Assembly: GCA_036566705.1 (NCBI GenBank)
Contig: DATCVX010000098.1
Coordinates: 1 to 54,964, forward strand
Reading direction: 5' to 3'
Origin: Arthrobacter sp.
Lineage (GTDB): Bacteria > Actinomycetota > Actinomycetes > Actinomycetales > Micrococcaceae
Length of the DNA stretch: 54,964 bases
The translations under genes and the position numbers were made by a program. The notes below the pieces were generated by a model. It did no database searches. It had not been told where the DNA came from and was given only the letters and a program-made list of their open reading frames with translations. Shown piece by piece: positions 41,686-54,964 of the stretch (position 1 is its first letter; every line of letters begins with the position of its first letter).

Positions 41686-42765
41686 ATGACCACTTCATCA
41701 GCACTCTGGCAACCGTTCACCCTCGGCCGGGTAGAGCTTCCCCACCGCCTGGCGATGGCACCCATGACACGCAACCGCGCCAACGCAGACGGCACACCGG
41801 GCGATCTGGCCGCCGAGTACTACGGACAGCGCGCGTCCCTGGGACTGATCATCACCGAAGGCACCCAACCTTCCGAAGACGGCCAGGGCTGGTTCCACAC
41901 ACCAGGCATCTACACACCCGAACAGGTGGAGGGATGGCGCGGAGTTGCCGATGCCGTCCACGCCGGCGGCGGAACGCTCTTCATACAACTCATGCACGCC
42001 GGCCGGATGGCCCATCCCGACAACACTCCCCATCACCGCCAGCCCGTAGCGCCGTCCGCCATCAATGCCGACCAGGACATGCCCACAGCCACCGGCAAGC
42101 AGAAGACCCCGACTCCGCGGGAATTGAGCACCGAGGAAGCCCAAGGGATTATTGCCGAGTTCCGCCACGCCGCAGCTTCGGCGATCGCCGCCGGAGCCGA
42201 CGGCGTCGAACTGCACGCCGCCAACGGTTACCTGCTGCACCAGTTCCTCGCCCCGAACTCTAACCAGCGCAGCGACCAGTACGGCGGATCCGTCGAAAAC
42301 CGGTCCCGGTTCGTCGTCGAGGTGGCCCGCGCAGTTGCCGACGAAATCGGCGCCGACCGGACCGGCATCCGGATCTCCCCCAGCTTCCCCCTGGGAGGCC
42401 TCGAAGAGGGCGACACCGACACGGTCCGCACACAATACCTCCACCTCGTGGGCGAACTCGCGCCCTTGAACCTGGCGTACCTGCACGTGTTCCACGCCGG
42501 GGATGATGAGATGCTCCGCTCCATCCGCGCCGCGTGGCCCACAGCCATCCTGGTCCTCAAATACGGACGCACACGGGAGCAACTCGCCGACTACATCGAA
42601 GCCGGACTGGCAGACATCGCCCCGGTAGGACAGCTGGCACTGGCCAACCCCGACCTCGTGGACAGGCTGCGCTACGACGCTCCACTGAACGAAGCAGACC
42701 CCACCACGTTCTACGGCGGAGACGCCACCGGCTACACCGACTACCCGGTAGCAGAACTCGTCTAA
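41686..42765 (+). CDS. Old yellow enzyme family alkene reductase (NemA-like)
   Basis: 'MAPMTRNRA', 'QLMHAGR', 'ELHAANGYLLHQF', 'YGGSVENR', 'TFYGG..GYTDYP'; SD AAAGGA. Confidence 0.93.
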   Translation: MTTSSALWQPFTLGRVELPHRLAMAPMTRNRANADGTPGDLAAEYYGQRASLGLIITEGTQPSEDGQGWFHTPGIYTPEQVEGWRGVADAVHAGGGTLFIQLMHAGRMAHPDNTPHHRQPVAPSAINADQDMPTATGKQKTPTPRELSTEEAQGIIAEFRHAAASAIAAGADGVELHAANGYLLHQFLAPNSNQRSDQYGGSVENRSRFVVEVARAVADEIGADRTGIRISPSFPLGGLEEGDTDTVRTQYLHLVGELAPLNLAYLHVFHAGDDEMLRSIRAAWPTAILVLKYGRTREQLADYIEAGLADIAPVGQLALANPDLVDRLRYDAPLNEADPTTFYGGDATGYTDYPVAELV

Positions 42766-42774
42766 CCCCTTAGC

Positions 42775-42940
42775 AAAGCCCTGTAGTGCTTTGTCGCGTT
42801 TTTTCCAGATCTCTTCCCACGATCCGTCATTAACCTCGGGAGGGTGAGAAGAGGTGCGATGCCCGAGTGTTAGTGCGTGCTGTAGTACCAGGGCACGTAG
42901 CCGGCAAGGTAAGTCTTGGCGGTCTCCAGCTTGAACCGTC
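42775..42940 (-). mobile_element. Degenerate IS3-family-like transposase C-terminal fragment
   Basis: Across stops and a frameshift it reads RFKLETAKTYLAGYVPWYYSTH*HSGIA / PPEVNDGSWEEIWKKRDKALQ, like the 'WYN..H.HSGI..P.EVH.G.W' end of actinobacterial IS3 integrase cores. Confidence 0.55.
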
Positions 42941-43212
42941 ACGGGTTTGATGCCGCTATCTTCGCGAGGGAGCTCGACCCTCGCCGCTTAACCGATGCTG
43001 TGGCGGCTGCGAACAACTGCTGATGCACTGCATCTGGGAAGGCAAGCAGGATTTCTGCCTGCCTTCCCAGATCGGTCAGAGGCTTGACCGGTTTCGGGCT
43101 TCTCATTGTGGACTGACGCCTGCGTGCGAGCCTTTTGGATGCCGATCTTTCGCGGTAACCGGGGTCCTGTTCGGCACCGCCAGACCCCGGCCGCGAATCC
43201 AACAGGACTTAA

Positions 43213-43363
43213 CTGGACAGCAGCCCTCGACGATGCCTGGATGCCCGCCCAGTCCTACCGCACCATCCGAGAACCCATGAAGCAGCTCACCATGTCCGAA
43301 ACACCCAACGAACTCGCCGCCCTGAACGTCTTCATCCGCGAACGCAGCCTGGCCACCGCATGA
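43213..43363 (+). pseudogene. C-terminal remnant of the probable partner (antitoxin-like) gene of the DUF6036 gene
   Basis: '...ETPNELAALNVFIRERSLATA*' with an ATGA overlap into the next gene; no credible N-terminus. Confidence 0.5.
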
Positions 43364-43804
43364 CCGGCGGAGAACTCAACGCCACACAAATCCGGGCCCT
43401 CCTGCACGAACCCGGCAGGCGCCTGCAAGCCGCCGGCGCCCACGGCGACATCAAACTCGTCGGCGCTGCCGCCCTCATCCTCCAGGGCATCGGCAACCGG
43501 CCCACCGCAGACATCGACCCCAGCTACGCAGACCCAGACACCATCCACGCCGTCGTCGCCGACATGGCCACAGACTACGACCTCGCCCCCGACTGGCTCA
43601 ACACCAACGCCGCAGCCTTCGTCCCCGACAACGCCACCTGGATCCCCCTGGAACAGCTCGACGGACTCACCATCCAGGCCGCAGGCACCGAAACACTCCT
43701 GGCCATGAAACTCGACGCCGAACGCGACAAAAGACACCCTCGACATCGCCCGGCTCCTGCGCCAATTCCGATCGCTGCAGAACACAAACAAAAATATTGG
43801 ATGA
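43360..43804 (+). pseudogene. DUF6036-like nucleotidyltransferase, frameshifted
   Basis: 'LVGAAAL...RPTADID...DWLN...LLAMKL'; removing one A from the run at 43729-43732 restores ERDKDTLDIARLLRQ. Confidence 0.7.
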
Positions 43805-43843
43805 CGATCGAGAACTCCGGACCCCCAGTTCCGCACTAAAAGA

Positions 43844-43939
43844 ATCCTTGACAGGGCTTCCCTGCAGCCCTATGTTTATTGCAACCGATCTCAGCAACCG
43901 ATCTCACTGCTCGTCAATGCAACCGATCTCAAAGGAGAG
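43844..43939 (+). promoter_or_regulatory. Sigma70/HrdB-type promoter (TTGACA 43848-43853, 17 bp, TATGTT 43871-43876) with three LacI-type operators (43880-43893, 43893-43906, 43918-43931) and SD
   Basis: Read directly; operator WGCAACCGATCTCA has the TG...CG...CA LacI-like symmetry; duplicated at 51189-51287. Confidence 0.85.
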
Positions 43940-43944
43940 ACTCG

Positions 43945-44055
43945 ATGATCAACTGGCTCATCCCCGGACCTTCGGTTACCCCACATTCAGCAGGCGTCGT
44001 TTTGAGTACGGCATGCTCCCGCATCAGCAAACCAGCACACAGGAGAGATTCATGA
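43945..44055 (+). CDS. Putative 36-aa leader micro-ORF MINWLIPGPSVTPHSAGVVLSTACSRISKPAHRRDS
   Basis: SD AAGGAG; TGA overlaps the SBP ATG (ATGA); N-terminus resembles the 51132-51182 peptide. Confidence 0.5.
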   Translation: MINWLIPGPSVTPHSAGVVLSTACSRISKPAHRRDS

Positions 44056-45308
44056 TCAAGAAGCGATGGGGCTTGGCACTCGTCACAGCAGTCGTAGCTA
44101 GCTTTGCCCTCAGTGGCTGCTCCCCCTCAACTCCGGAAGCTGGGGGGCCGGTGACGCTCAATTACTGGGACTTCCTCGATCCCAGCCAGGCTAATCCGCG
44201 CTCAAAGGCCCTGAAGGAAAACATTGCCAATTTCGAGGCGGCAAACCCCGACATTAAGATCAATCTCTCAGTGGTTTCACTGGGAGATATGTTGAACAGG
44301 CTGCCGCAGTCAGCAGCGGCCGGTCAGACGCCGGATGTATTTAAGATGTTCACCCCGCTCGTCCCCCAAATGGCCGGCGCCGGCGTCTACTCGCCGCTGC
44401 CTGATGCTGCGTCCAAGGTCACTGACTGGCTTCGCCCCACCGACACTCTCGCTGGACCTGACGGCAAGCAGGTCGCCGTGCCCTACGAATACCGGACCTG
44501 CGCCCTTTACTACAACCAAAAGATTCTTTCTCAGATCGGCGCAACGGCTCCCACCACCTACGATGAGGTTGTCGACGTTGCGCGAAAAGCGGCCGCCGCT
44601 GGATTCACCGGCTTCGGAACCGGGTTCTCGGACACCGATAACTCAGCCATCATCAGCACCTTCTTTAACTGCTTCATGACGCAGGTCGACCAGAAAATAT
44701 GGACTGGGGACGGACAGGCAGATTTTTCGACCAAGAAGAGCGAGGAGTTTGGCAACTTCCTTACCAAGCTCCGGGACGCAAAGGCTCTGGGCAGCAATGT
44801 CGTTTCCGATACGTACGGCACCGTAGCAGACGGCATGGCCAGCGGCACTGTCGCAATGGCAGTCCTCGGCACGGAACGAGCCGTTTCCTTCGGCTCGCAG
44901 AACCCGGACCTCAAGTGGACCTCCCTGCCAAAGGCATCTACTGGCGACACTACGGGCACCACCATCGGGTGGACCCTGGGAATAGGCTCGGGAAGCAAGC
45001 ACACTGAGGCGGCCTGGAAGTTCATCGAGTACATGACCGGTCCCGAAGCAGGCGCAAAGATGGCCACCGGCGGTGAGGTCCCCACACGCGCCGCCACGTA
45101 TGAGCAGCCATTCTTCTCCACGCCCGAAGCGAAAACGGTGAACGACATCGCCGCCTACGTCAAGAGCAACAGCGAACCCCGCACATATTCCAATAACTGG
45201 ACCTCGCTGGCCACCGGGCTCTCCCAAGCCGGACAGAAACTGACCCTCAACGGTACATCGGGCAGCGAATTTATCCGTTCCGCACAGGATGCGGCCAACA
45301 AGAAATAG
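44052..45308 (+). CDS. Sugar ABC transporter substrate-binding lipoprotein (CUT1)
   Basis: Lipobox LSGC, 'FEAANPDIKI', 'ALYYNQK', 'EAAWKFIEY'; start set at ATG 44052. Confidence 0.92.
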   Translation: MIKKRWGLALVTAVVASFALSGCSPSTPEAGGPVTLNYWDFLDPSQANPRSKALKENIANFEAANPDIKINLSVVSLGDMLNRLPQSAAAGQTPDVFKMFTPLVPQMAGAGVYSPLPDAASKVTDWLRPTDTLAGPDGKQVAVPYEYRTCALYYNQKILSQIGATAPTTYDEVVDVARKAAAAGFTGFGTGFSDTDNSAIISTFFNCFMTQVDQKIWTGDGQADFSTKKSEEFGNFLTKLRDAKALGSNVVSDTYGTVADGMASGTVAMAVLGTERAVSFGSQNPDLKWTSLPKASTGDTTGTTIGWTLGIGSGSKHTEAAWKFIEYMTGPEAGAKMATGGEVPTRAATYEQPFFSTPEAKTVNDIAAYVKSNSEPRTYSNNWTSLATGLSQAGQKLTLNGTSGSEFIRSAQDAANKK

Positions 45309-45317
45309 CCCCTAACG

Positions 45318-45353
45318 TCCGAGGGGAGCCTGAAAAATCAGGTTCCCCTCGGA
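45318..45353 (+). terminator. Intercistronic stem-loop after the SBP gene
   Basis: TCCGAGGGGAGCCTGA-AAAA-TCAGGTTCCCCTCGGA; no U-tail, so more likely an mRNA-stabilising hairpin. Confidence 0.65.
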
Positions 45354-45364
45354 AGGGAGAGATA

Positions 45365-46297
45365 ATGTCAACAAACAGCCCGACCCGCACTTCATCTCAG
45401 ACGGCCACTCCACCCACAGGCATCCAGGCTCTCCGCCGGGCTCGTAAGGACCGCATGGTCTGGTTGTACGTCGTCCCCGTCAGTGCCGTGTTCCTCTTTG
45501 TCTTTGTTGGACCGCTCATCTACACGGCATGGACAGCCCTTCACGAGACTTCGTATTATCAGATCGGCAAATTCTCCGGTCTGAACTCTTTTACCAAGCT
45601 GTTCTCAGACTCCGATCTGCCCGCCCGCATCTGGACAACTCTTGTATTTTCGCTCGGGGCGCTGGTCATTGCATTGCCCGCGGGACTCTTGTCTGCGATT
45701 GTGCTGAACAACCTGCATCGATTCAAGCGTTCCGTCCGCAGCCTCTTCCTGTTGCCGTGGCTAATGTCCCAGGCCACAGCGGGAACAATCTGGCTGTGGT
45801 TTCTCAACCCCAATTACGGGCCGGCCTCAGCTATCACTAAATCCCTTGGGTTCGGTCCTACTGATGTCTTCTCGTCCCCGAATAGTGCGCTCGTTGCCGT
45901 GACTCTGATGACGGCTTGGTGGTCCTACCCGCAAGCCATGCTTCTCTTTCTCGGCGCCCTTCAAACCATTCCAGGGGAGTTGTACGAAAGCCTCAAAGTG
46001 GACGGCGGCGGCATTCGGCACGCATTTGTCAACATCACGTTGCCTCACCTGCGCAACACGATCGTCTCCGTGGTGATCGTGCTACTCATGCTCTATGTAC
46101 AGATGGTCACTATTATCCTGGTGACGACACGAGGCGGTCCCATCGGATCGACCGAGACGCTGTCAATGCGGGTATACAACCAGATGTTCGACAAGTTCGA
46201 TCTCTCCGGGGCGTCAGCAACGGCTATCCTCCTTTTCGCCGTAAACATTGTCCTCACTCTTGTCGCGATTCGCTTCCGACGGAAGGAAAGCCTGTGA
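45365..46297 (+). CDS. Carbohydrate ABC transporter permease
   Basis: 'LQTIPGELYESLKVDGG...ITLPHL', 'TRGGP..STETL'. Confidence 0.93.
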   Translation: MSTNSPTRTSSQTATPPTGIQALRRARKDRMVWLYVVPVSAVFLFVFVGPLIYTAWTALHETSYYQIGKFSGLNSFTKLFSDSDLPARIWTTLVFSLGALVIALPAGLLSAIVLNNLHRFKRSVRSLFLLPWLMSQATAGTIWLWFLNPNYGPASAITKSLGFGPTDVFSSPNSALVAVTLMTAWWSYPQAMLLFLGALQTIPGELYESLKVDGGGIRHAFVNITLPHLRNTIVSVVIVLLMLYVQMVTIILVTTRGGPIGSTETLSMRVYNQMFDKFDLSGASATAILLFAVNIVLTLVAIRFRRKESL

Positions 46298-47154
46298 GCA
46301 CCACAACTTCACGTCGCCAAGGCCGCGTCGGCGCGGTCCTTCGGGCGGTTCCGGCCTGGGCGTACGTCACCCTCTCAGCTGCGATCGTCCTACCGCCTGT
46401 CGCATGGATCGTCTCCACCTCGCTGAAAACGGCCTCGGATACCCTTGAGTTCCCGCCGAGATGGATTCCGGACCCGATCTCATTCGAGGGCTACGCGGGC
46501 CTGCTGACTTCAACGAACATCCGGTTTTTTGTTAACTCCCTCATCTACGCTGGCGGTTCTATTGCCCTCGCGTTGGCGATTTCCATTCCTGCAGCATATG
46601 TTGCCACCAGGTACCGAAGCCGCCGCATGGAAACTCTGATGACCGGGATCCTGGTGCTATCGATGGTTCCGGCAATCGTGGTCTTTATCGCGCTGTACTC
46701 CATGTTCGTCAAAACCGCCTTAATCAACACGTACCCGATGCTGATCGTCGTCTACACGGCCATCATTTGTGGACAGACCATCCTGTTTCTTCGCAACTTC
46801 ATCGAGAACATACCCGTCGAGATTGAGGAAGCGGCCGCAATCGATGGCTGCTCCCGGATACAGATCTTGTGGCGAATCATCCTCCCACTCATCCGTCCCG
46901 GTATCGCTGCTGTAGCTATCTTCATCTTCGTATTCGTTTGGAACGACTTCCTTGTAGGCACCGTCCTCGCCACCACAGAAGACATGAAGACCGTCCAGAA
47001 CGGCATCGTGCGCTATATAACCACTGGCTTCGGTAGCTTCTGGGGACTCTTCGCCGCATTCATCGTCGTTGCCTTCATCCCCGTTCTCTCAATCTTCCTG
47101 GCCTTCCAGCGTTGGTTTGTTGCCGGCATGACGTCCGGAGGGGTCAAGGGATAA
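46294..47154 (+). CDS. Carbohydrate ABC transporter permease
   Basis: EAA loop 'IPVEIEEAAAIDGCS', 'WNDF', 'QRWFVAGMTSGGVKG'; GTG start overlaps the upstream TGA. Confidence 0.93.
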   Translation: MSTTTSRRQGRVGAVLRAVPAWAYVTLSAAIVLPPVAWIVSTSLKTASDTLEFPPRWIPDPISFEGYAGLLTSTNIRFFVNSLIYAGGSIALALAISIPAAYVATRYRSRRMETLMTGILVLSMVPAIVVFIALYSMFVKTALINTYPMLIVVYTAIICGQTILFLRNFIENIPVEIEEAAAIDGCSRIQILWRIILPLIRPGIAAVAIFIFVFVWNDFLVGTVLATTEDMKTVQNGIVRYITTGFGSFWGLFAAFIVVAFIPVLSIFLAFQRWFVAGMTSGGVKG

Positions 47155-47190
47155 CTACAGCAAGAGTTCTGCCACCCAGGCCCAGCCTAG

Positions 47191-47239
47191 AAAAGCACGC
47201 CACATGGCCGCTTCCAAGCGGTCATGTGGCGTGCCCTTT
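47191..47239 (+). terminator. Probable intrinsic terminator of the ABC operon
   Basis: 19-bp stem GCACGCCACATGGCCGCTT/AAGCGGTCATGTGGCGTGC with one G-U pair, AAAA before and CCTTT after. Confidence 0.75.
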
Positions 47240-48580
47240 CGCGACCAACTCACCGGAACTGCAATCCCTAAACCCTGACAAGCCCCTCAGCCCGCGTCAT
47301 AATTACCCGCGGGGGCTGAATGCCCTCGTTCAACACCAACACCAGCGAAGGAGCCTGACCAATGCACCGCCCGAACGCCCTGCCCACCGGCCAGTGGCCA
47401 ATCTTCCCCTCGATGAAGACGGCAAGCTCGCCTCGGGGCGGGGCTACGACGGCCCTTAATCGCCGTCTCCGGAGACAGTCTTGAGACCTGGCGCTGACAA
47501 CGAGCTCGAATTCCGCCACGAAGCCAGCGTCTACTCCCGCTCTTTGGGGACGGCGAACATCTGGTGAGGCCTGCCGCGACGAAAATGAATGCTGTTGAAG
47601 CTTCCACCGGCATGTTTTTGCGGAAACAAGGGGTGCCTCGTTGCCTTGAGTGGCGGACCGGCAATTGCAAAGTCCCTTAGTCGTTGAACTGCCTGGTAAC
47701 GGCAATCTCGCGGCCATAGGCGCTCTCCGCCTGGCAGGCCTGACCATCGTTTGTTCACTGTGGGTCGGCTTGGTCGGCGCTGGGCTCGTGGCCACCGCAT
47801 TCGCCCTTGAGCGTGAGAATCTGGGTGGGCTGCTGCCAAGCGAAACAAAAAAGCAGTTCAAAGAGGTCCTGGACCTTGAGGCAGGCATCCACTCGAGCTA
47901 TGAACCCTGTTCGGCCGTTTCGGCAGGCGGTGGTGCCGCAGGCCGAATAGAGGAGCCCCAGGGATGCAAGGGGTAGCCACATCTTGCGCGACGCCTGGCA
48001 GCGCCCCCTAGACCGCTCCCGCATGTGTCGCAGCGACCTCGCGACGCGGCGTCGGGGAGATCCCGTCACCTTCGAAGCGCTGAATCATGAACCAAACAGT
48101 CGATATGAGGAACACAGGCCCAGCCTATTGCTCGCCCACCACACGCGGCTCCCGAACAGCGACCAGTACCTCGCCCTCTTAAACCGTGCTCACCGTTTAA
48201 GAGGGCGAGGAGCAGACTGCAGTCCGCGTCCGTGTACCCCTTTGCGAAAGGACAGGCTTTGAGGCATCTTGCCGCGCCAGCCCCTGATGGTCGGCCGCTC
48301 TTGGGGGGTGGCACGCACGTGGGACGCATTCTGTCCTCACACGAGCCAAACCATCAGGTGGCGCAGCAAGTCCGGGCCACGGACTTGCCAATACATCGGC
48401 CTTCTCGGCAAAGGTGTCATTGCTATCGAAAAGACTCAAGGCTCGGTTGATGAGTGGCGGACCCTTTCGGCCTGAATCGCAAAGCCGCGCTCCTCGTTCC
48501 ATGCGCTGTTTCCCCTGGTTTGCCCAGTCTGGTCACCTGGCGCTAGGCACTCCGAGCATCTTTTCCCGGGTGCGGATAGC

Positions 48581-49054
48581 TCAAGAATTGTCGCTTGGCT
48601 GCCAGTCTGGCGGCTGAATTAGCTCCACACGATTTCCGTCGGGATCGAGCAGGTAGATCAGCAAGCCTCCTGCAACCGGGCCCGACGTGGGTGCGACCGG
48701 TTCGGACAAGGCGCTGTACCCGAGCGCTGTCATCCTGGCGTAAACCTTGCGCAGGTCAATATTGGTAAAAGCAAGATGTGCAGTCCCCGGCTGCGCCTCT
48801 GATGGGTTAACGGCCGGTGGCGGATCCTCAACCTGGACCAACTCCAAGTTGAAGGTACCGTCTCCCGTTGAGAGCATTAGTGCTTTGACCGTAACGTCCG
48901 GACGGCCGTAAAGTTCGCCGACGTATGGGCCCGATGTCCACGATTTCAAGCGGGCAAGGCCAAGCCCTTCCACGTAGAAGCGTGCGCTGCGCTCGATGTC
49001 CGTGACGTGCAGGGCAGTGTGATGATGTCGAATCGCAGTTTTCATTTCACTCAC
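48581..49054 (-). CDS. VOC (glyoxalase-like) family protein
   Basis: 'HHTALHVTDIERSARFY...LGL', 'LELVQ', 'HLAF', 'DPDGNRVELIQ'. Confidence 0.9.
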   Translation of the reverse strand: MSEMKTAIRHHHTALHVTDIERSARFYVEGLGLARLKSWTSGPYVGELYGRPDVTVKALMLSTGDGTFNLELVQVEDPPPAVNPSEAQPGTAHLAFTNIDLRKVYARMTALGYSALSEPVAPTSGPVAGGLLIYLLDPDGNRVELIQPPDWQPSDNS

Positions 49055-49099
49055 CTAAACATTCCCGAGGGGCTTGAACTGGACCAAGAGAACGGACAT
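49055..49099 (-). CDS. Putative 14-aa micro-ORF MSVLLVQFKPLGNV
   Basis: SD GAGGAG; its TAG directly abuts the VOC GTG at 49054. Confidence 0.4.
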   Translation of the reverse strand: MSVLLVQFKPLGNV

Positions 49100-49262
49100 T
49101 TCGTTTTCTCCTCGTAGATTCAGACTTTGACTTCGCTTGGGTTGCCCAGGCACAGCCTTGAGGGGTCGGTGCTGGGTTTGCCTGGCGTATGGGTCCGCTG
49201 GGTTGCCACCCGCAAAAAGGGTGTGTGGTTGGCTCATGATTGCGCGGCACCGTGCAGGGCGT

Positions 49263-50012
49263 TCAGGTTCCGATTCCCAGGTGTGCTCCGCCGGCCACAT
49301 CGAGAGACACTCCGGTGATGTAGCGGTTGTCGGGATCGGTCAGGAAAAGGATGGCGCGGGCGACTTCGTCGGGTTCGGCAAACCGGCGCATCGGCAGTTG
49401 CGCTGCCCGCTTCGCCCGGTTGGCAGCCGCATCCGGGCCTGAATCTTTGGCAAACTGGGCCCACATGGGTGTGTTCACCGGACCTGGTGCGACGGCGTTG
49501 ACAGAGATGCCCCGAGGCCCAAGCAATTCTGCAAAGGACCACATGATGTGTAGGACTGCGAGTTTGCTCGCGTTGTATGGCAGGTAGTTCAGGCGGGCTT
49601 CTTTGGCCGCGACGGAGGATAAGACCACGATGGCGCCGGCCGTGCCGGACTCAAGCATTGACTTTGCCGTCTCTCGTACCATCGAGAACGTTGCAGAGGC
49701 ATTGATCCTCAGAATGGAATCGAACTCTTCTGTGGTTGTCTCCATAATGTCCGGCGTGGTGCCGAGCACTCCTGCTGCATGGACGAGGACGTCGATGCGG
49801 CCGAATCTGGCTTTGATGTCCTGGATAACCGTTGCGCATTGTTGCTCGGACGTGATGTCGAGAGGATAGAAGGCCCCCAGCGCCTGATCCTCCTTGGGGG
49901 AACGATCAGCGCCGACGACGAGGGCGCCTGCGGCTACGAATGCGCTGACAGCAGCATCGCCGATTCCCCCGCTCGATCCGGTTACCAGGACCACCTGGTC
50001 TTTGAGGCTCAT
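49263..50012 (-). CDS. SDR family NAD(P)-dependent oxidoreductase
   Basis: TGSSGGIG, 'HAAG', YNASK, 'VNAVAPGPVNT'. Confidence 0.93.
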   Translation of the reverse strand: MSLKDQVVLVTGSSGGIGDAAVSAFVAAGALVVGADRSPKEDQALGAFYPLDITSEQQCATVIQDIKARFGRIDVLVHAAGVLGTTPDIMETTTEEFDSILRINASATFSMVRETAKSMLESGTAGAIVVLSSVAAKEARLNYLPYNASKLAVLHIMWSFAELLGPRGISVNAVAPGPVNTPMWAQFAKDSGPDAAANRAKRAAQLPMRRFAEPDEVARAILFLTDPDNRYITGVSLDVAGGAHLGIGT

Positions 50013-50083
50013 CAGTTATCCCCACTCTGCTTGCGGCTGCGCCGCGGTTCGCCTGCGGTCGGAGCGTGAGTTGCTCGCTTCAT
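50012..50083 (-). CDS. Putative 23-aa micro-ORF MKRATHAPTAGEPRRSRKQSGDN
   Basis: SD TAAGGA; TGA overlaps the SDR ATG (TGATG). Confidence 0.45.
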   Translation of the reverse strand: MKRATHAPTAGEPRRSRKQSGDN

Positions 50084-50136
50084 GTCTAAGTTCCTTAATT
50101 AGGGCTGTTCAGCCGACGGTTGCCTGTTGTTCAGGT

Positions 50137-51135
50137 TTATTGGTGATGCGACGGGGCGACCACGCCTTCAGCTCTGGATGTTGCGGCTGCCGGGACTGCA
50201 TCGGCGATTTCCGTAGCGCGGAGTGCCTGGGCGAATGTGACTGCAGGGGTTCCACCCGTGCAAAACTTCAGTGCCATCTCTGCTTGGCGAAGGAAGAGGT
50301 CGGAGGGCTCAAAGGTCGTGTCATACTGGCCACCGTCACGCTCCCACACGTGAAGGGAGTCGTTGGACCATAACATCCGGCCCTCAGTGGCCAGGACGTC
50401 GATGGTGAGGCTCCAGTCGCCCTGATTGAGTCCTTGAGGCTCCTGCCAGGGAGACCAGTAGCTCTGCATGGTGAATATGACGCCCTCAGGAAATTCGAGC
50501 GTGGAGACGACGTGCTCCGGTACCGGTGACCCATAGAGGCTGCTGCTGGCGCTGCTGGCCAGTACTTTCGGGTAGCCGTCAAACCATGATGAGACTAACT
50601 CAATGGCGTGAATGCCATTCACTACAGCGACGCCGCCCTCCTTCGGGTCAGCGCGCCATGAGTGGACGTTCTGTTTATGGGCGACGGAACGAACAGACAC
50701 GGCGATTACGTTCTTGTTCCTGATCCATTGAGAGACAAGTGTGGCGGCGGGATGTTGGTGGAGCGTATACCCGACCATGAGTCGCTCGTTTACGCCCCAA
50801 GCGGCAGCCAGGACGGAAGCACCTTCGGCATCTGCGGCCACAGGCTTTTCAGTCAACACATGGAATCCCCTGTTCAGCAGATCTGCGCATATGGCCGGTT
50901 GCATGGTGGTCGGTAGCGCTACGACTACCAGGTCCAAGTCTTCGGGTTGTAGTTCCGCGGTACTGGGCACCAGCTGTGCGCCCAGCTCCTGGGCGAGGGC
51001 AACGCCGCGCCCGTCTTTCTCCACAAGGATGGTGACATTGGCACCTGCCGCGGCGAATGCCCGCGCGTGCCGTGATCCGGCCCAGCCGGCCGCTCCCACG
51101 ACGGCGACGCGCGGGCCATGTGCCGTTGCCGTCAT
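50137..51135 (-). CDS. Gfo/Idh/MocA family oxidoreductase
   Basis: 'VAVVGAAGWAG', 'HVLTEKP', 'GG...NGIHAIE'. Confidence 0.88.
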   Translation of the reverse strand: MTATAHGPRVAVVGAAGWAGSRHARAFAAAGANVTILVEKDGRGVALAQELGAQLVPSTAELQPEDLDLVVVALPTTMQPAICADLLNRGFHVLTEKPVAADAEGASVLAAAWGVNERLMVGYTLHQHPAATLVSQWIRNKNVIAVSVRSVAHKQNVHSWRADPKEGGVAVVNGIHAIELVSSWFDGYPKVLASSASSSLYGSPVPEHVVSTLEFPEGVIFTMQSYWSPWQEPQGLNQGDWSLTIDVLATEGRMLWSNDSLHVWERDGGQYDTTFEPSDLFLRQAEMALKFCTGGTPAVTFAQALRATEIADAVPAAATSRAEGVVAPSHHQ

Positions 51136-51182
51136 GATGTCGGGACGCCGAAGATGATGCCAGGGACAAAGCAGTTGACCAT
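51132..51182 (-). CDS. Putative 16-aa leader micro-ORF MVNCFVPGIIFGVPTS
   Basis: SD AAGGGAG; TGA overlaps the Gfo ATG (ATGA); N-terminus resembles the 43945-44055 peptide. Confidence 0.5.
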   Translation of the reverse strand: MVNCFVPGIIFGVPTS

Positions 51183-51188
51183 AATGTC

Positions 51189-51287
51189 TCTCCCTTGAGA
51201 TCGGTTACGTTCTTTTCGTGTCAGTGAGATCGGTTGCTGAGATCGGTTGCAATAAACTTATGGTCCCAAGAAGGGTCTGTCAAGGAT
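51189..51287 (-). promoter_or_regulatory. Second copy of the promoter/operator cassette (TTGACA 51283-51278, 17 bp, TAAGTT 51260-51255; operators 51238-51251, 51225-51238, 51196-51209)
   Basis: 36-bp block identical to 43874-43909 on the opposite strand. Confidence 0.85.
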
Positions 51288-51375
51288 CTATGTGGTTCGG
51301 GTTTCGGGGCCAGGCGTTCTCATTGTCTGTGTAGATGATTTCGGGTTTGTGATCTACTGCAGCCGGGCTCTGCCC

Positions 51376-52662
51376 TCAGGTTCTTGCCTCGTTGGCGCCT
51401 GGGCGTGCCACCCGGAAGGCGTCTTCGAGCAAGCGTGGCTTGTTGACCATCACGGCTCCTACCGAAAGCACCGCAAGCCAGGCTCCGAGCATGCCGAACG
51501 AGGGCAGCCAGCCGTCGCCTGGATGATGCAGGAGACCAAAAAAGAACGGGCCAACGCTCGCGAGGGCGTAGCCGACTCCCTGGGCGAACCCGGATAGGCT
51601 CCCTGAACCGGATTGCGTTCGTGTTCGCTTATTGATCATCGTGAACGCGAAGGCGTACGCGCCTTGGCCAAGTCCAGCTATGACGACCCAGACCACTGCA
51701 GAGGCTGGTGGAGCAAAGATGATGCCTCCGTAACCCACGGCGAATGCGAGGACCAACAGGATTGCGACGGGTAGCGGGCGAAGCATTCTCACCACTGCCA
51801 GAGGCACAATCAGGGCGACAGGCACGGTGAGGATTGAATAGAGCGCCAGCATGGATCCAGCGGTTTCCTGACTCATTCCTCTGTCGACAAGAACAGCCGG
51901 AAGCCAACTGAGCGCCGCGAAAGTATTGCTCGAGCAACCAGCGAAGATCAGTGCTGCACCCCAGCCAATTGATGATCTCCAGGGTTTGATCGCGTTCGCA
52001 GGGGGAGACGGCCCATCGCGGGCTGGTGATGTCTTGGAGCGGGCAACAGTCCGCTTGCCTGCAAGAAGAATCAGCCAAGGCATCGCAGCGACCGCGCTGA
52101 CGGCCGCCCAAATGCCGATGGAGAACCGCCAGCCATAAAGATTGCCCAAGGGTATGGCGGATTGGGCGGCCACAGCCGTGCTGGCGCCCAGGAGACTTAT
52201 GTGGAGCGTTGCGAGGATCCCGGTTTTGTCGGGAAAGTACTTCATCAGCAGAGGCGGAATCACGACATTGACCATCCCGATCCCGAGCATGGCGATCAAG
52301 GTGAACACCAAGAATGCCGGGATGTTCCATCCCAGCGCGCGGCCGCCCTGGCCAAGTGTTGTCAGCAGGATCGAGACCAGCAGCAGGTGTTCCAGCTGGA
52401 TACGCCGGAGGAGCGGCGGAGCCAGGAAACCCATCACCGCGAAGCCGGCGGTCGGCAGCATCCCAAGGATCCCTGTCGTCACCGCGTCGAGGGGAAGGTC
52501 CTCGCTTATTGGACCAAGGAGCGGGGACACCGCCGAAACGGCTTCTCTGGCGCTGAATGCGACCAGCAGGATGCCGGTAAGCGCGGTGAGCCGGCCGCTT
52601 AACGGTTGTCTCCCCGCTCCCCCGATGTGTGGTCTGCCCTGACGCAGGCGAAAGAAAGCTAT
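51376..52662 (-). CDS. MFS transporter (CynX/NimT-like), probable ATA start
   Basis: Many TMs, 'GSLSGFAQGVGYALA'; the frame extends upstream of GTG 52530 through a TM1-like segment to ATA 52662, 5 nt after GGAGGTG. Confidence 0.8.
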   Translation of the reverse strand: MAFFRLRQGRPHIGGAGRQPLSGRLTALTGILLVAFSAREAVSAVSPLLGPISEDLPLDAVTTGILGMLPTAGFAVMGFLAPPLLRRIQLEHLLLVSILLTTLGQGGRALGWNIPAFLVFTLIAMLGIGMVNVVIPPLLMKYFPDKTGILATLHISLLGASTAVAAQSAIPLGNLYGWRFSIGIWAAVSAVAAMPWLILLAGKRTVARSKTSPARDGPSPPANAIKPWRSSIGWGAALIFAGCSSNTFAALSWLPAVLVDRGMSQETAGSMLALYSILTVPVALIVPLAVVRMLRPLPVAILLVLAFAVGYGGIIFAPPASAVVWVVIAGLGQGAYAFAFTMINKRTRTQSGSGSLSGFAQGVGYALASVGPFFFGLLHHPGDGWLPSFGMLGAWLAVLSVGAVMVNKPRLLEDAFRVARPGANEART

Positions 52663-52765
52663 GTTTTCACCTCCGTATCTTCAGCAGGTTTGTTCAAGCC
52701 AGGTTCCACGGTGCCCGCATCAAAGACTGAAAGTGCAGTGGAGAAAGGGCGAGCTAGGTTGGTTG

Positions 52766-53758
52766 TCAGCTTTCGTTTACTGCGTGGCTGGCCCATTCCC
52801 GTCCGGCTTGCTCTTCTGTTGGCAAACCCGCGGCAGCGAGAATCCGGTCGAGCAAGCGTTGGGTATGGACAGCTTCCCGGCCTGAGGTAAGCGGCTGCGC
52901 CCTGTCAGCAACCCGGTCCAGGAAATGATGAACGGCGGCCGAAAACCCCAGCGTGTCTGTCGCAGTAGCCCAGCCATAGGCCTCGGCGCTAAGTTCCCGC
53001 GATGTGGTGACACCGTTGACCGTGGTCGAAACCGTCTCCGGTGCCCTCACTTCGACGGTCTTTCCGTCGCCGTAGGCGTCCAGTTTTTCGTTCCATGCAC
53101 CTGCCGTACGGGCTGCCATCAGGACGCCCGTGTTCCCGGTACTGAAGCGGATAGTTGCTGCGACGCCGTCTTCTTCCCAAGGGTCGTCACCGGCGGCGTG
53201 CGCTGCGACGTCCACCGGCTCGCCGCCGCAGTACCAGCGGAGGAGATCAACCATGTGAATGGCGTTCTCGAATGTCGCACGGTATTCCGATCCAGGGCGG
53301 TTTTTCTGGGCGACGCAGAACGTAGCGCCCTTCTCACCGAACGCCTCGCGTCCTGCCCTGTAGACAGGTGCGTAGCGGCGGTTGAAGTCGACCATCAGGA
53401 TGCGGCCCCGCTCATCGGCGAGGTCCGCCAGGCGTTCTGCCTCCTCGGTTGCCGGAGCCAGGGGCTTTTCGCAAAACACGTCGACGTCGCGGTCCAGGCA
53501 CAGTTGGACGGCGTGGGCGTGCTCAGAGCGTGGCGTCAGGACGAAAACTGCATCCAGCTCCTGGGAGGCCAGCATGTCCTCCACCGTTTTGTAGGCGGCG
53601 TTGAAGCCCCAGCGCCGGACCAGGCTGCCCGGGTCATCACGCCGGGACACCAGAGCGGCCAACTCGACATCATCGCGTTGGACGAGGGTGGGCAATTGGG
53701 CAATGGTGGCGATATTGCCCGCGCCGACAACTCCGACGCGCAGACGGGTGGTGGTCAT
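52766..53758 (-). CDS. Gfo/Idh/MocA family oxidoreductase
   Basis: 'VGVVGAGNIA', 'VFCEKPLA', 'FNRRY', 'ENAIHMVD'. Confidence 0.92.
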   Translation of the reverse strand: MTTTRLRVGVVGAGNIATIAQLPTLVQRDDVELAALVSRRDDPGSLVRRWGFNAAYKTVEDMLASQELDAVFVLTPRSEHAHAVQLCLDRDVDVFCEKPLAPATEEAERLADLADERGRILMVDFNRRYAPVYRAGREAFGEKGATFCVAQKNRPGSEYRATFENAIHMVDLLRWYCGGEPVDVAAHAAGDDPWEEDGVAATIRFSTGNTGVLMAARTAGAWNEKLDAYGDGKTVEVRAPETVSTTVNGVTTSRELSAEAYGWATATDTLGFSAAVHHFLDRVADRAQPLTSGREAVHTQRLLDRILAAAGLPTEEQAGREWASHAVNES

Positions 53759-54657
53759 CAGGCGTTCCTCACTTCAGCGAGACCGGAAAGCATTGAGCGC
53801 AGGACGGCGGCGGATTCGCGGAATCCGTCCTCGGGCGCGGGGAGGTCTTGCGGGTGCCAGCGGTACTCGAGTTCGATGCTCAGCACGTCGTCGTAGCCAT
53901 GCTGCAGCAACCCGGCGAGGATTTGAGTCCATGGAACGACGCCGCTTCCGACTACGCGGGATCGGACGGCCCGCTCGGAAGCGTTGACCCGGGCTGTTTC
54001 CGTGGCGCGGAAGGCCGCGTTGGGATCGGTGAAAACGAGGTCCTTCACGTGAACATGACCGATCAGGTTACCTTGAACAGCGAGGGCCTGTTCGTACGTT
54101 TCGTCGTGGGTGAATGTCAGGTTCGCCTGGTCATAGAGAACGCGGACGGCCGGATGGGCAATTTCCCGGACAAGGGCAGCTGTGTCCGCCGCGGTCTGGG
54201 TCATGGTGCCGAAGTGGTTTTCCACGCAAAGGCGAACCCCGGCCTGGTCTGCTTCGGGCGCGAGGGCCTCCAATGCTTCACGCAGTTTTGCCCAACGCGC
54301 CGCATGGTCGTTGTCCCCGGGGTGCCACGAACCAGCATAGACGCGGACCCGGTCAGCGCCGAGCAGGTGCGCGGTCTCTATGGCGCCACGGAATTCATCG
54401 ACTGCTGTGCGCCATTCCACGTCGTCCAGTGAGTTGATGGCCGTTGTGTAAGGCGTCAGACCCACGATGGGTACCCCCGCGCTTTCGGCCGCTTTCAGAG
54501 CCTCCGTCGCGGCACGCCGGTCACCTAATGGCAATCCTGATTTGTAGTCATTCTGGTAGATGACTTCGGCGGCATCGAGCCCTGCGGCTCGGAATAGATC
54601 AAGTGCTTGGGGAACCGTGTGGTCCGGGGTGCCTAGTGTGTGACCGGCTAGCCGCAT
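53758..54657 (-). CDS. Sugar phosphate isomerase/epimerase family (xylose-isomerase-like TIM barrel) metalloenzyme
   Basis: Metal-ligand motifs 'VENH', 'YDQAN', 'HVHVKD', 'SIELE'. Confidence 0.9.
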   Translation of the reverse strand: MRLAGHTLGTPDHTVPQALDLFRAAGLDAAEVIYQNDYKSGLPLGDRRAATEALKAAESAGVPIVGLTPYTTAINSLDDVEWRTAVDEFRGAIETAHLLGADRVRVYAGSWHPGDNDHAARWAKLREALEALAPEADQAGVRLCVENHFGTMTQTAADTAALVREIAHPAVRVLYDQANLTFTHDETYEQALAVQGNLIGHVHVKDLVFTDPNAAFRATETARVNASERAVRSRVVGSGVVPWTQILAGLLQHGYDDVLSIELEYRWHPQDLPAPEDGFRESAAVLRSMLSGLAEVRNA

Positions 54658-54660
54658 TGT

Positions 54661-54964
54661 TTATGTCCTTTCTGAAATGTTTGGAGGTGCTGCCCAGTCC
54701 GTGGGACCGACCAGCCGGGGCGGGGCTGCGACGCGGGATCGATCCACGATTTCCATCAGCATTCCCCAAGGCGTGATGAAGTAGGTCCAGCGATTGCCGG
54801 CTACTCGGGGGCTGTCACCGGCGACTTCTTTGCGCTCACCGAGCACGCGTACTCCAGGTGTTGACTGCAGCACTGCGATCGCTTCGTCGACGTCGTCCAC
54901 GACGAAGCACAGGTGGTGGCCGCCGGCGTCGCAGTGCCGCGGCGGGGTATCACGCCGCTCAGCG
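54661..54964 (-). CDS. VOC family protein (5'-truncated by window edge)
   Basis: 'GGHHLCFVVDDVDEA...WTYFITPWGMLMEIV'. Confidence 0.8.
   Translation of the reverse strand, partial: AERRDTPPRHCDAGGHHLCFVVDDVDEAIAVLQSTPGVRVLGERKEVAGDSPRVAGNRWTYFITPWGMLMEIVDRSRVAAPPRLVGPTDWAAPPNISERT

What the first reader, a model, noticed from the sequence alone, without database searches (positions are those of the whole stretch)
43945..51182. Four SD-led micro-ORFs coupled to genes of one sugar-catabolic regulon, two with similar peptides
Seen: four short ORFs missed by the ORF track each have a Shine-Dalgarno and a stop that overlaps or abuts the next start. They are 43945-44055 (+, 36 aa, ATGA into the SBP), 51182-51132 (-, 16 aa, ATGA into Gfo/Idh/MocA), 50083-50012 (-, 23 aa, TGATG into the SDR) and 49099-49055 (-, 14 aa, TAG|GTG into the VOC). 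The two promoter-proximal peptides begin MINWLIPG and MVNCFVPG; Pro (CCC/CCT) and Gly (GGA/GGC) differ only at silent positions, and both ORFs end TCA-TGA. The Gfo and VOC genes have no obvious SD of their own. Inference: a systematic leader-peptide or ribosome hand-off layer, or small regulatory proteins, controlling this pathway. Caveats: the N-terminal similarity could partly come from the promoter duplication, and the 14-aa ORF is in frame with the VOC gene, so it could be a nonsense-interrupted N-terminus.
Basis: partly seen in the sequence, partly recalled or inferred. Interest (0 to 1): 0.78.

Follow-up and report, generated by a model that had tools for sequence, protein, structure and literature searches.

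The report
Deletion scars kept as ribosome couplers
The four tiny reading frames are real, one is the left-over start and tail of three deleted transporter genes, and two of them keep their start and reading frame but not their peptide sequence, so they likely serve only to hand ribosomes to the next gene rather than to make regulatory peptides.

Summary
All four micro-ORFs exist as described, but they are not a peptide-based regulatory layer.

u2 (51182-51132) is an in-frame deletion scar. It joins the RBS and first codons of a lost ABC binding-protein gene to the last 13 codons of its permease, which 7 relatives still carry, ATGA-coupled to Gfo. In 37 of 37 orthologs u2 keeps SD and start. 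It either overlaps the Gfo start (32) or has fused in frame to Gfo (5, two independent events), never the third frame; dN/dS is 0.80.

u3 (50083-50012) is coupled to the SDR in 65 of 72 loci, with only 3n length changes and dN/dS 0.88-0.96. Its parent gene was not found.

u1 is a copy of promoter plus u2 scar, which explains the similar peptides; only 22 of 36 alleles stay coupled and the SBP has its own SD.

u4 is probably a remnant of a lost gene. The VOC gene likely starts at ATG 49045 with its own SD, so TAG|GTG is not a real junction.

Best reading: u2 and u3 are sequence-independent ribosome-delivery ORFs, like mycobacterial coupled sORFs or integron ORF-11, with a traceable gene-loss origin for u2. 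Translation is untested.

The parts
43848..43876 (+). sigma70-type promoter copy P1 (TTGACA-17-TATGTT) of the ABC operon
   Evidence: aligns with P2
43881..43931 (+). three 13-nt operator repeats (43881, 43894, 43919); predicted site of the cluster's LacI-family regulator
   Evidence: 10 matches with at most 1 mismatch in the genome: 6 on this contig, 4 on C525; LacI family of the cluster gene; binding inferred
43931..44055 (+). u1: SD (43931-43939) plus 36-codon ORF from 43945; copy of the u2 scar carrying a 4-nt deletion; coupling not conserved, start conserved
44040..45308 (+). sugar-binding protein SBP_B (ATG 44052) with its own SD at 44040-44047
   Evidence: Pfam SBP_bac_1; SD -7.4
47104..47154 (+). 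C-terminal tail of permease 2 (gene about 46294-47154), homologous to the sequence from which u2 derives
48581..49056 (-). VOC/glyoxalase gene, likely start ATG 49045 with own SD AGGTGAG 49056-49050
49055..49113 (-). u4: SD (49113-49107) plus 14-codon ORF 49099-49055; probable remnant of a lost gene, stop 12 nt before the VOC ATG
   Evidence: 191-nt remnant in L038 shares both ends
49263..50012 (-). SDR gene; its own SD-like motif (50027-50019) lies inside u3
50012..50097 (-). u3: SD TAAGGAA (50097-50091) plus 23-codon ORF 50083-50012; frame-conserved coupler with near-neutral peptide
50137..51135 (-). Gfo/Idh/MocA oxidoreductase, no SD of its own in the window
51132..51196 (-). u2: SD (51196-51188) plus 16-codon ORF 51182-51132; in-frame deletion scar (SBP_A start + permease tail), ATGA-coupled to Gfo
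51196..51283 (-). promoter P2 (TTGACA 51283-51278, TAAGTT 51260-51255) with three operator repeats (51250, 51237, 51208)
   Evidence: not picked up by the consensus scan

Best explanation
The four micro-ORFs are real and u2 is the in-frame scar of a deleted ABC transporter; u2 and u3 keep start and frame but not peptide sequence, so they likely act as sequence-independent couplers that would load ribosomes at a strong RBS and hand them to Gfo and to the SDR by termination-reinitiation. Shown: in 7 relatives the same promoter and RBS drive SBP-permease-permease, whose last codons overlap the Gfo ATG, and u2 is that RBS and start joined to those last codons. Inferred: about 3.0 kb was deleted in frame, a divergent ABC cassette was acquired downstream, and it received a copy of promoter plus scar (u1). 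Also inferred: Gfo then lost its internal SD and depends on u2. u1 and u4 are likely by-products of the same reshuffling; u1's conserved start may still load ribosomes on the leader. Pathway control is likely at the LacI-type operators, not at the peptides.
For: Origin: u2 aligns without gaps to the permease tail at the same 47-nt distance from the Gfo ATG. The window's u2 matches 23 of 38 nt and the least decayed alleles 31-32 of 38; 0 of 2000 shuffles reached these. In the 7 intact loci that tail has dN/dS 0.00. One origin of the scar arrangement is not rejected (p-AU 0.16 Gfo, 0.39 SDR). u2 function: 30 of 30 loci keep SD and start, 29 stop-overlap and 1 in-frame fusion. Of 7 later loci, 3 overlap and 4 carry a second independent fusion; none lies in the third frame, which would stop a median 200 nt inside Gfo. 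u3: 57 of 64 SDR loci carry it, all coupled, plus 8 of 8 later loci. Of the 7 without it, 4 have the upstream Gfo2 gene running to the SDR start and 1 has the u3-type SD directly on the SDR ATG. Frame changes per length change: u3 0/5, u2 1/6, non-coding spacers 21/23 (Fisher 5e-6). Neutral survival of the start codon was 0 of 4000 simulations for each of u2 and u3, and no-stop probability for u3 was 28 of 2000. dN/dS: u2 0.80 (p=0.27 vs 1), u3 0.88 and 0.96, versus 0.07 for SDR codons 2-23. The Gfo start has the weakest SD and lowest predicted accessibility of the 8 starts.
Against: No translation or reporter data. u2's lack of internal stops is not significant alone (620 of 2000 neutral runs). 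The SDR has an SD of its own (median -6.6, 47 of 57 at or below -5), so u3 may boost rather than be required. Gfo in the intact loci has a good internal SD (median -9.4), and 11 of 30 u2 loci still score at or below -5, against 27% of random coding positions. No parent gene was found for u3 or u4, so 'scar' is shown only for u2. u1's SD+ATG is strongly conserved (0.76 vs 4.5 substitutions per site in its first half) although 14 of 36 alleles are uncoupled, which the coupler model does not explain; dN/dS was 0.53 (p=0.03) among 12 close u1 alleles. Best Gfo and SDR trees need 2 changes of arrangement. Event counts are parsimony minima on related genomes.
Confidence: 0.72

Rival explanations
1. 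Translation of the micro-ORFs matters, but for protecting the mRNA (covering untranslated stretches against Rho or nucleases, or unfolding the next RBS) rather than for passing the same ribosome on.
For: u1's start is conserved without its frame. u1 and u3 contain the next gene's SD next to their stop. An mRNA-stabilising role was proposed for integron ORF-11/17 ahead of a gene with its own SD (PMC8876359, passages). The Gfo start is predicted to be structured.
Against: Protection alone would tolerate the third frame or stops a few codons away, yet 37 of 37 u2 and 65 of 65 u3 alleles end on the start codon or fuse to it.
Confidence: 0.12
2. All four are functionless relics of recent operon reshuffling and persist only by descent.
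For: Fits u4 (absent in 26 of 40 VOC loci, two frames among 13) and u1's frame (6 frame changes in 9 length changes). Bodies evolve at about 70% of the four-fold-site rate for u3 and the first half of u1. No genome-wide excess of such ORFs.
Against: Start survival 0 of 4000 under neutrality for u1, u2 and u3; 1 of 11 frame changes vs 21 of 23 in spacers; u3 no-stop 28 of 2000.
Confidence: 0.07
3. The peptides are regulatory: leader peptides that sense a metabolite or stalling, or small proteins acting in trans.
For: u1 and u2 are promoter-proximal and share an N-terminal pattern in the window. u2 peptides are often hydrophobic. u1 dN/dS 0.53 in 12 close alleles.
Against: dN/dS not different from 1 for u2 and u3. 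u2 peptides share no fixed residue after Met across clades, and u2 fused to Gfo twice. No consensus structure for u2 or u3 (alifold energy 0), no terminator-like site on the coding strand inside u1-u4, and no Rfam match. The similarity is inherited from a permease tail and a promoter copy.
Confidence: 0.06
4. The micro-ORFs are N-terminal extensions of the downstream proteins reached by programmed frameshift or stop read-through.
For: u4 is in frame with VOC across one TAG in the window. In-frame u2-Gfo fusions are tolerated.
Against: 8 of 13 short u4 alleles are out of frame with VOC. Pfam domains of Gfo, SDR and VOC are complete without the extensions. Extensions show no amino-acid constraint.
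Confidence: 0.03

Closest known systems
Coupled small ORFs of mycobacteria (Shell et al. 2015, PMC4633059; passages seen) and the 'ribosome delivery' uORF idea (Brown & Wade 2025, PMC12548453; passages seen)
   Same: Actinobacterial short ORF ending in RTGA on the next start; coupling kept while the peptide sequence is not.
   Different: Those are leaderless; these are SD-led, two are internal to the operon, and u2's origin is traced to an in-frame loss of three genes. Support here is a 37- and 65-locus allele series, with no Ribo-seq.
Class 1 integron attI1 ORF-11/ORF-17/ORF-18 (review PMC8876359; passages seen)
   Same: SD-led non-functional peptide whose start, not sequence, drives a downstream gene lacking its own initiation region; can also boost genes that have an SD.
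   Different: Built into a recombination site and completed by incoming cassettes; here chromosomal catabolic genes and a permease-derived scar.
Synthetic nfORF / bicistronic design (PMC13255528, abstract only; bicistronic design mentioned in PMC12548453 passage)
   Same: Short nonsense ORF with an internal RBS next to its stop, as in u1 and u3.
   Different: Engineered in E. coli; here natural and maintained by selection.
Termination-reinitiation at ATGA/TGATG gene pairs (Huber et al. 2019, PMC6728339; passages seen); S. meliloti coupled uORFs (PMC13285730; abstract and passages)
   Same: Same overlaps; variable need for an internal SD.
   Different: There the upstream partner is a real gene, or a uORF whose origin the passages seen do not discuss; here the partner gene was lost and only its ends remain.
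Mycobacterial MIRU-encoded ORFs (passage in PMC12548453)
   Same: A small ORF preserves expression of the next gene after a genome rearrangement.
   Different: Arises by insertion of a repeat; u2 arises by deletion, and u3 has one match in the genome.

Membership tests
Coupled small ORFs (ribosome-delivery uORFs) | Own initiation site (SD + start codon) | tested here: met
   start survival under neutrality 0 of 4000 for u1, u2, u3
Coupled small ORFs (ribosome-delivery uORFs) | Stop overlaps the downstream start (RTGA or TGATG) | tested here: met
   u1, u2, u3 in the window; u4 stops 12 nt before the likely VOC ATG, so not met for u4
Coupled small ORFs (ribosome-delivery uORFs) | Coupling conserved while peptide is not | tested here: met
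   u2 and u3; not met for u1 (22 of 36 coupled) or u4
Coupled small ORFs (ribosome-delivery uORFs) | ORF is translated and downstream synthesis depends on it | not testable with these tools
   only assembled RNA contigs were available
Mycobacterial leaderless coupled sORFs | Leaderless start at the transcript 5' end | tested here: not met
   u1 starts 69 nt after the predicted -10 box and all four have an SD; transcription starts are predicted, not mapped
Attenuator leader peptides | Conserved regulatory codons or stalling motif | tested here: not met
   dN/dS 0.80-0.96 and no fixed residues in u2, u3
Attenuator leader peptides | Conserved alternative hairpins or terminator after the leader | tested here: not met
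   no consensus fold for u2 or u3, weak one for u1; 8 terminator-like sites vs 6.5 in shuffles, none on the coding strand inside u1-u4; no Rfam hit
Small regulatory proteins | Purifying selection on amino acids | tested here: not met
   (u2, u3 neutral; u1 0.53 in 12 close alleles but frame broken elsewhere; u4 0.48, p=0.13, 10 codons)
Small regulatory proteins | Recognisable family or called homologs | tested here: inconclusive
   u1 and u3 have no Pfam hit above cut-off and are not in the protein collection; u2 and u4 are below the tools' 20-aa minimum
Integron attI1 ORF-11 | ORF spans an attI site next to an integrase | not tested
   no attI or integrase search was made; compared for mechanism only
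Deletion scar of an ABC cassette (u2) | 5' end matches the lost first gene's RBS/start and 3' end matches the lost last gene's tail, in frame | tested here: met

The most novel reading that the evidence does not exclude
Operon gene loss in this cluster repeatedly leaves RBS-plus-tail scars that selection converts into dedicated coupler ORFs. All four micro-ORFs would then be natural bicistronic parts that set the output of each enzyme, with u1's conserved start acting as a frame-independent ribosome-loading booster. This would be a general and searchable route by which unannotated bacterial uORFs are born from lost genes.
Probability: 0.3. Interest if true: 0.7.

Novelty: new variant of a known kind. 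Interest (0 to 1): 0.5.

Why it matters
Short ORFs that only deliver ribosomes have been proposed and shown in a few cases, but where they come from is rarely traceable. Here the parent operon, the scar and two later fusion alleles all survive in one genus. That gives a natural allele series for testing how coupling constrains operon gene loss. It also warns that SD-led, conserved-looking small ORFs with 'similar peptides' can be rearrangement scars rather than small proteins.

Tried and rejected
Rfam scan of 42500-54964: 0 matches at E<=1. Parent gene of u4: a DNA search of 201 genus genomes found only the known remnants and short weak hits, a protein search of longer proteins scored 0 of 329 candidates, and Pfam found nothing. 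Parent of u3: a DNA profile found one match in the own genome and no second site in the fetched loci apart from a split hit in L148. The idea that u1's 3' half is a relic of the Gfo 5' end gave only weak scores (0-488 of 1000 shuffles reached them, 32 comparisons) and is not claimed. Genome-wide excess of coupled micro-ORFs was not significant and the scan was insensitive. The VOC search of 401 genomes of the order hit 3, all in this genus, so the arrangement could not be followed further out. Substrate of the pathway: only the KDPG/KHG aldolase passed an NCBIfam cut-off among 13 proteins, and Gfo had no PDB relative at 1e-10, so it remains unidentified. RNA runs hold only small shares as contigs of related strains; pieces span 43908-44310 and 48912-49175, which shows neither strand, level nor translation and is not used as evidence. 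No 16S 3' end was found in the assembly, so a recalled anti-SD was used. Two look-ups of earlier findings returned nothing. Literature searches for a deletion-scar origin of coupler ORFs (related 40, 61) listed no such paper; the library lacks most subscription papers, and no supplements were read.
Full report
Observation. The four ORFs are present exactly as listed: u1 43945-44055 (+), u2 51182-51132, u3 50083-50012 and u4 49099-49055 (all -). The neighbours are a sugar-binding protein and two permeases on +, and Gfo/Idh/MocA, SDR and VOC genes on - (Pfam). The two operons start from copies of one promoter with three 13-nt repeats each; the same repeat occurs twice at each of two promoters on contig C525 and nowhere else at one mismatch. 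In relatives these genes lie in one cluster with a LacI regulator, a KDPG-type aldolase, a kinase-like gene, further Gfo and VOC genes and an MFS transporter. LacI control through these repeats is inferred. Named relatives are Arthrobacter, Pseudarthrobacter and Paenarthrobacter records. VOC likely starts at ATG 49045 behind AGGTGAG (-8.3 kcal/mol, versus -4.3 for the GTG), the GTG is GCG in 6 of 13 short-u4 alleles, and the public call is the 154-aa form.

Data set. A DNA search of 201 genus genomes, region fetches and an SDR-based scan gave 64 non-identical SDR loci at 78% identity or more. Of these, 30 have the window's arrangement and 7 an alternative one; L133 was too short to show the Gfo start and was recovered later as L195. 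A later batch from metagenomes and further genomes gave 10 non-duplicate loci used as a held-out check; one of two identical metagenome loci and all duplicates were dropped.

Origin of u2. In the 7 alternative loci the same promoter and RBS start a binding protein (63-66% identical to the window's), followed by two permeases whose last codons overlap the Gfo ATG. u2 aligns without gaps to that tail at the same 47-nt distance. Identity over 38 nt is 23 for the window, 31-32 for L026, L027 and L060, and 18-26 for the other ten tested. Shuffles reached these values 0 of 2000 times in 10 of 14 cases and at most 26 of 2000. A profile built without the five least decayed alleles still finds the tails in 6 of 7 intact loci, weakly (E 0.5-3). 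The tail has dN/dS 0.00 where it is still a permease, which sets the direction: u2 derives from the permease. The start-to-start distance fell from 3078-3092 nt to 47. Best Gfo and SDR trees need two changes of arrangement, but one is not rejected (p-AU 0.16, 0.39). The window's ABC cassette is much further from the lost one than the Gfo and SDR genes are, so replacement of the transporter is inferred.

Selection on u2. All 30 loci keep SD and start; 29 end on the Gfo start and L018 has fused in frame. In 7 held-out loci, 3 are coupled and 4 share a second, independent fusion. No allele uses the third frame, which would stop a median 200 nt inside Gfo. dN/dS is 0.80 (23 alleles, 14 codons, p=0.27 against 1). 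Start survival under neutrality is 0 of 4000. Absence of stops is not significant alone (620 of 2000). The Gfo SD is good in intact loci (median -9.4) and decayed behind u2 (median -4.8, window -1.7), and the Gfo start has the lowest predicted accessibility of the eight starts.

u3. It is present in 57 of 64 loci, including Sinomonas and Specibacter records and three different upstream genes, always ending on the SDR start, with lengths 56, 59, 65, 71 and 74. In 8 of 8 held-out loci it is coupled, adding lengths 68 and 80. Of the 7 without it, 4 have Gfo2 running to the SDR start, 1 has the u3-type SD directly on the SDR ATG, and 2 (L099, L101) are unexplained. dN/dS is 0.88 (0.96 without the SD part) against 0.07 and 0.21 for SDR segments, and the no-stop probability is 28 of 2000. 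The SDR has its own SD inside u3, so u3 may boost rather than be essential. No parent was found.

Frame test. Frame changes per length change by parsimony are u3 0/5, u2 1/6 (the fusion), u1 6/9, SBP-permease spacer 10/12 and promoter spacer 11/11. u2+u3 against the two spacers gives p=5e-6, and u1 against them p=0.12. These are minimum counts on related genomes.

u1. It is a copy of promoter, RBS and u2 scar with a 4-nt deletion; L060's u2 begins almost identically. This accounts for the two similar peptides. 17 of 29 alleles and 5 of 7 held-out alleles are coupled, and the rest stop 49-64 nt early or 5 nt late. The SBP has a strong SD in 29 of 29. Against a pure relic: SD+ATG changes at 0.76 substitutions per site versus 4.5 in the first half of the ORF, the 3' half is also slower (2.15), and only L035 lost both SD and ATG. 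This is unexplained. A frame-independent loading role like integron ORF-17 or the synthetic nfORF is possible.

u4. It is present in 14 of 40 VOC loci. L038 holds a 191-nt version whose two ends, in different frames, match the two halves of the window's u4, so u4 is probably the remnant of a lost gene, though no intact parent was found. Five alleles, including the window, stop 12 nt before the VOC ATG and eight end ATGA. Other lineages put a similar RBS directly on VOC. It is dispensable.

Mechanism. Shown: anatomy, u2's origin, and conservation of start and frame without peptide constraint. Inferred: translation of u2 and u3, reinitiation on Gfo and SDR, order of rearrangements, and operator control. 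Rivals are mRNA protection, neutral relics, regulatory peptides and recoded extensions; no consensus fold, coding-strand terminator or Rfam family supports attenuation. A crude genome scan shows no general excess of such ORFs (30/568 vs 60/1627, p=0.11).

Comparison. It works like the coupled sORFs of mycobacteria (PMC4633059, passages), the ribosome-delivery uORFs and MIRU ORFs discussed in PMC12548453 (passages), integron ORF-11/17 (PMC8876359, passages) and synthetic nfORFs (PMC13255528, abstract). It rests on termination-reinitiation as in PMC6728339 (passages); natural coupled uORFs are also reported in PMC13285730 (abstract and passages). It is not leaderless and not an attenuator. Searches listed no paper on deletion scars as couplers, within an open-access library and without supplements. 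Verdict: a new variant of a known kind, interest 0.5.

Noticed in passing
window 47331-47496 (+): Decayed 5' fragment of a xylose-isomerase-like TIM-barrel (AP_endonuc_2) gene between the two convergent operons; 76% identical to a stretch of C214 and the source of the weak hits in most genus genomes.
   Followed up: partly
G000 contig C525 (operators at 2284/2271 on -, 3688/3701 on +): Carries the LacI, Gfo, aldolase, kinase-like and MFS genes of the same cluster with the same operator repeats; likely the continuation beyond the window's contig end.
   Followed up: partly
window 44004-44018 (+): Imperfect palindrome in the slowly evolving 3' half of u1, without compensatory changes; possible second DNA site or part of the captured cassette's leader.
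   Followed up: partly
L044, L055, L075, L096 upstream of the SDR: Gfo2 runs into what looks like the u3 tail and ends on the SDR start: a further in-frame deletion that keeps coupling.
   Followed up: partly
run X5, loose end at window 49044: One contig appears to carry an allele in which the u4 RBS and start are fused in frame to VOC.
   Followed up: no
L024 and L025 (both G158); L027, L054 and L164 (G100): Single genomes hold two copies of the cluster, in G158 one of each arrangement, so paralogy or transfer complicates the trees.
   Followed up: no
window 51376-52530 (-): CynX/NimT-like MFS gene inserted between Gfo2 and promoter P2, absent from the shorter Gfo2-SDR clusters.
   Followed up: no
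window 43360-43839 (+): Weak DUF6036 nucleotidyltransferase-like ORF (E 7e-4, below cut-off) just upstream of P1, GTGA/ATGA-coupled to a short upstream ORF.
   Followed up: no
L020-L023 and L028-L037 promoter of Gfo: Operators and promoter P2 are partly lost or degenerate in these loci while u2's SD and start persist.
   Followed up: no
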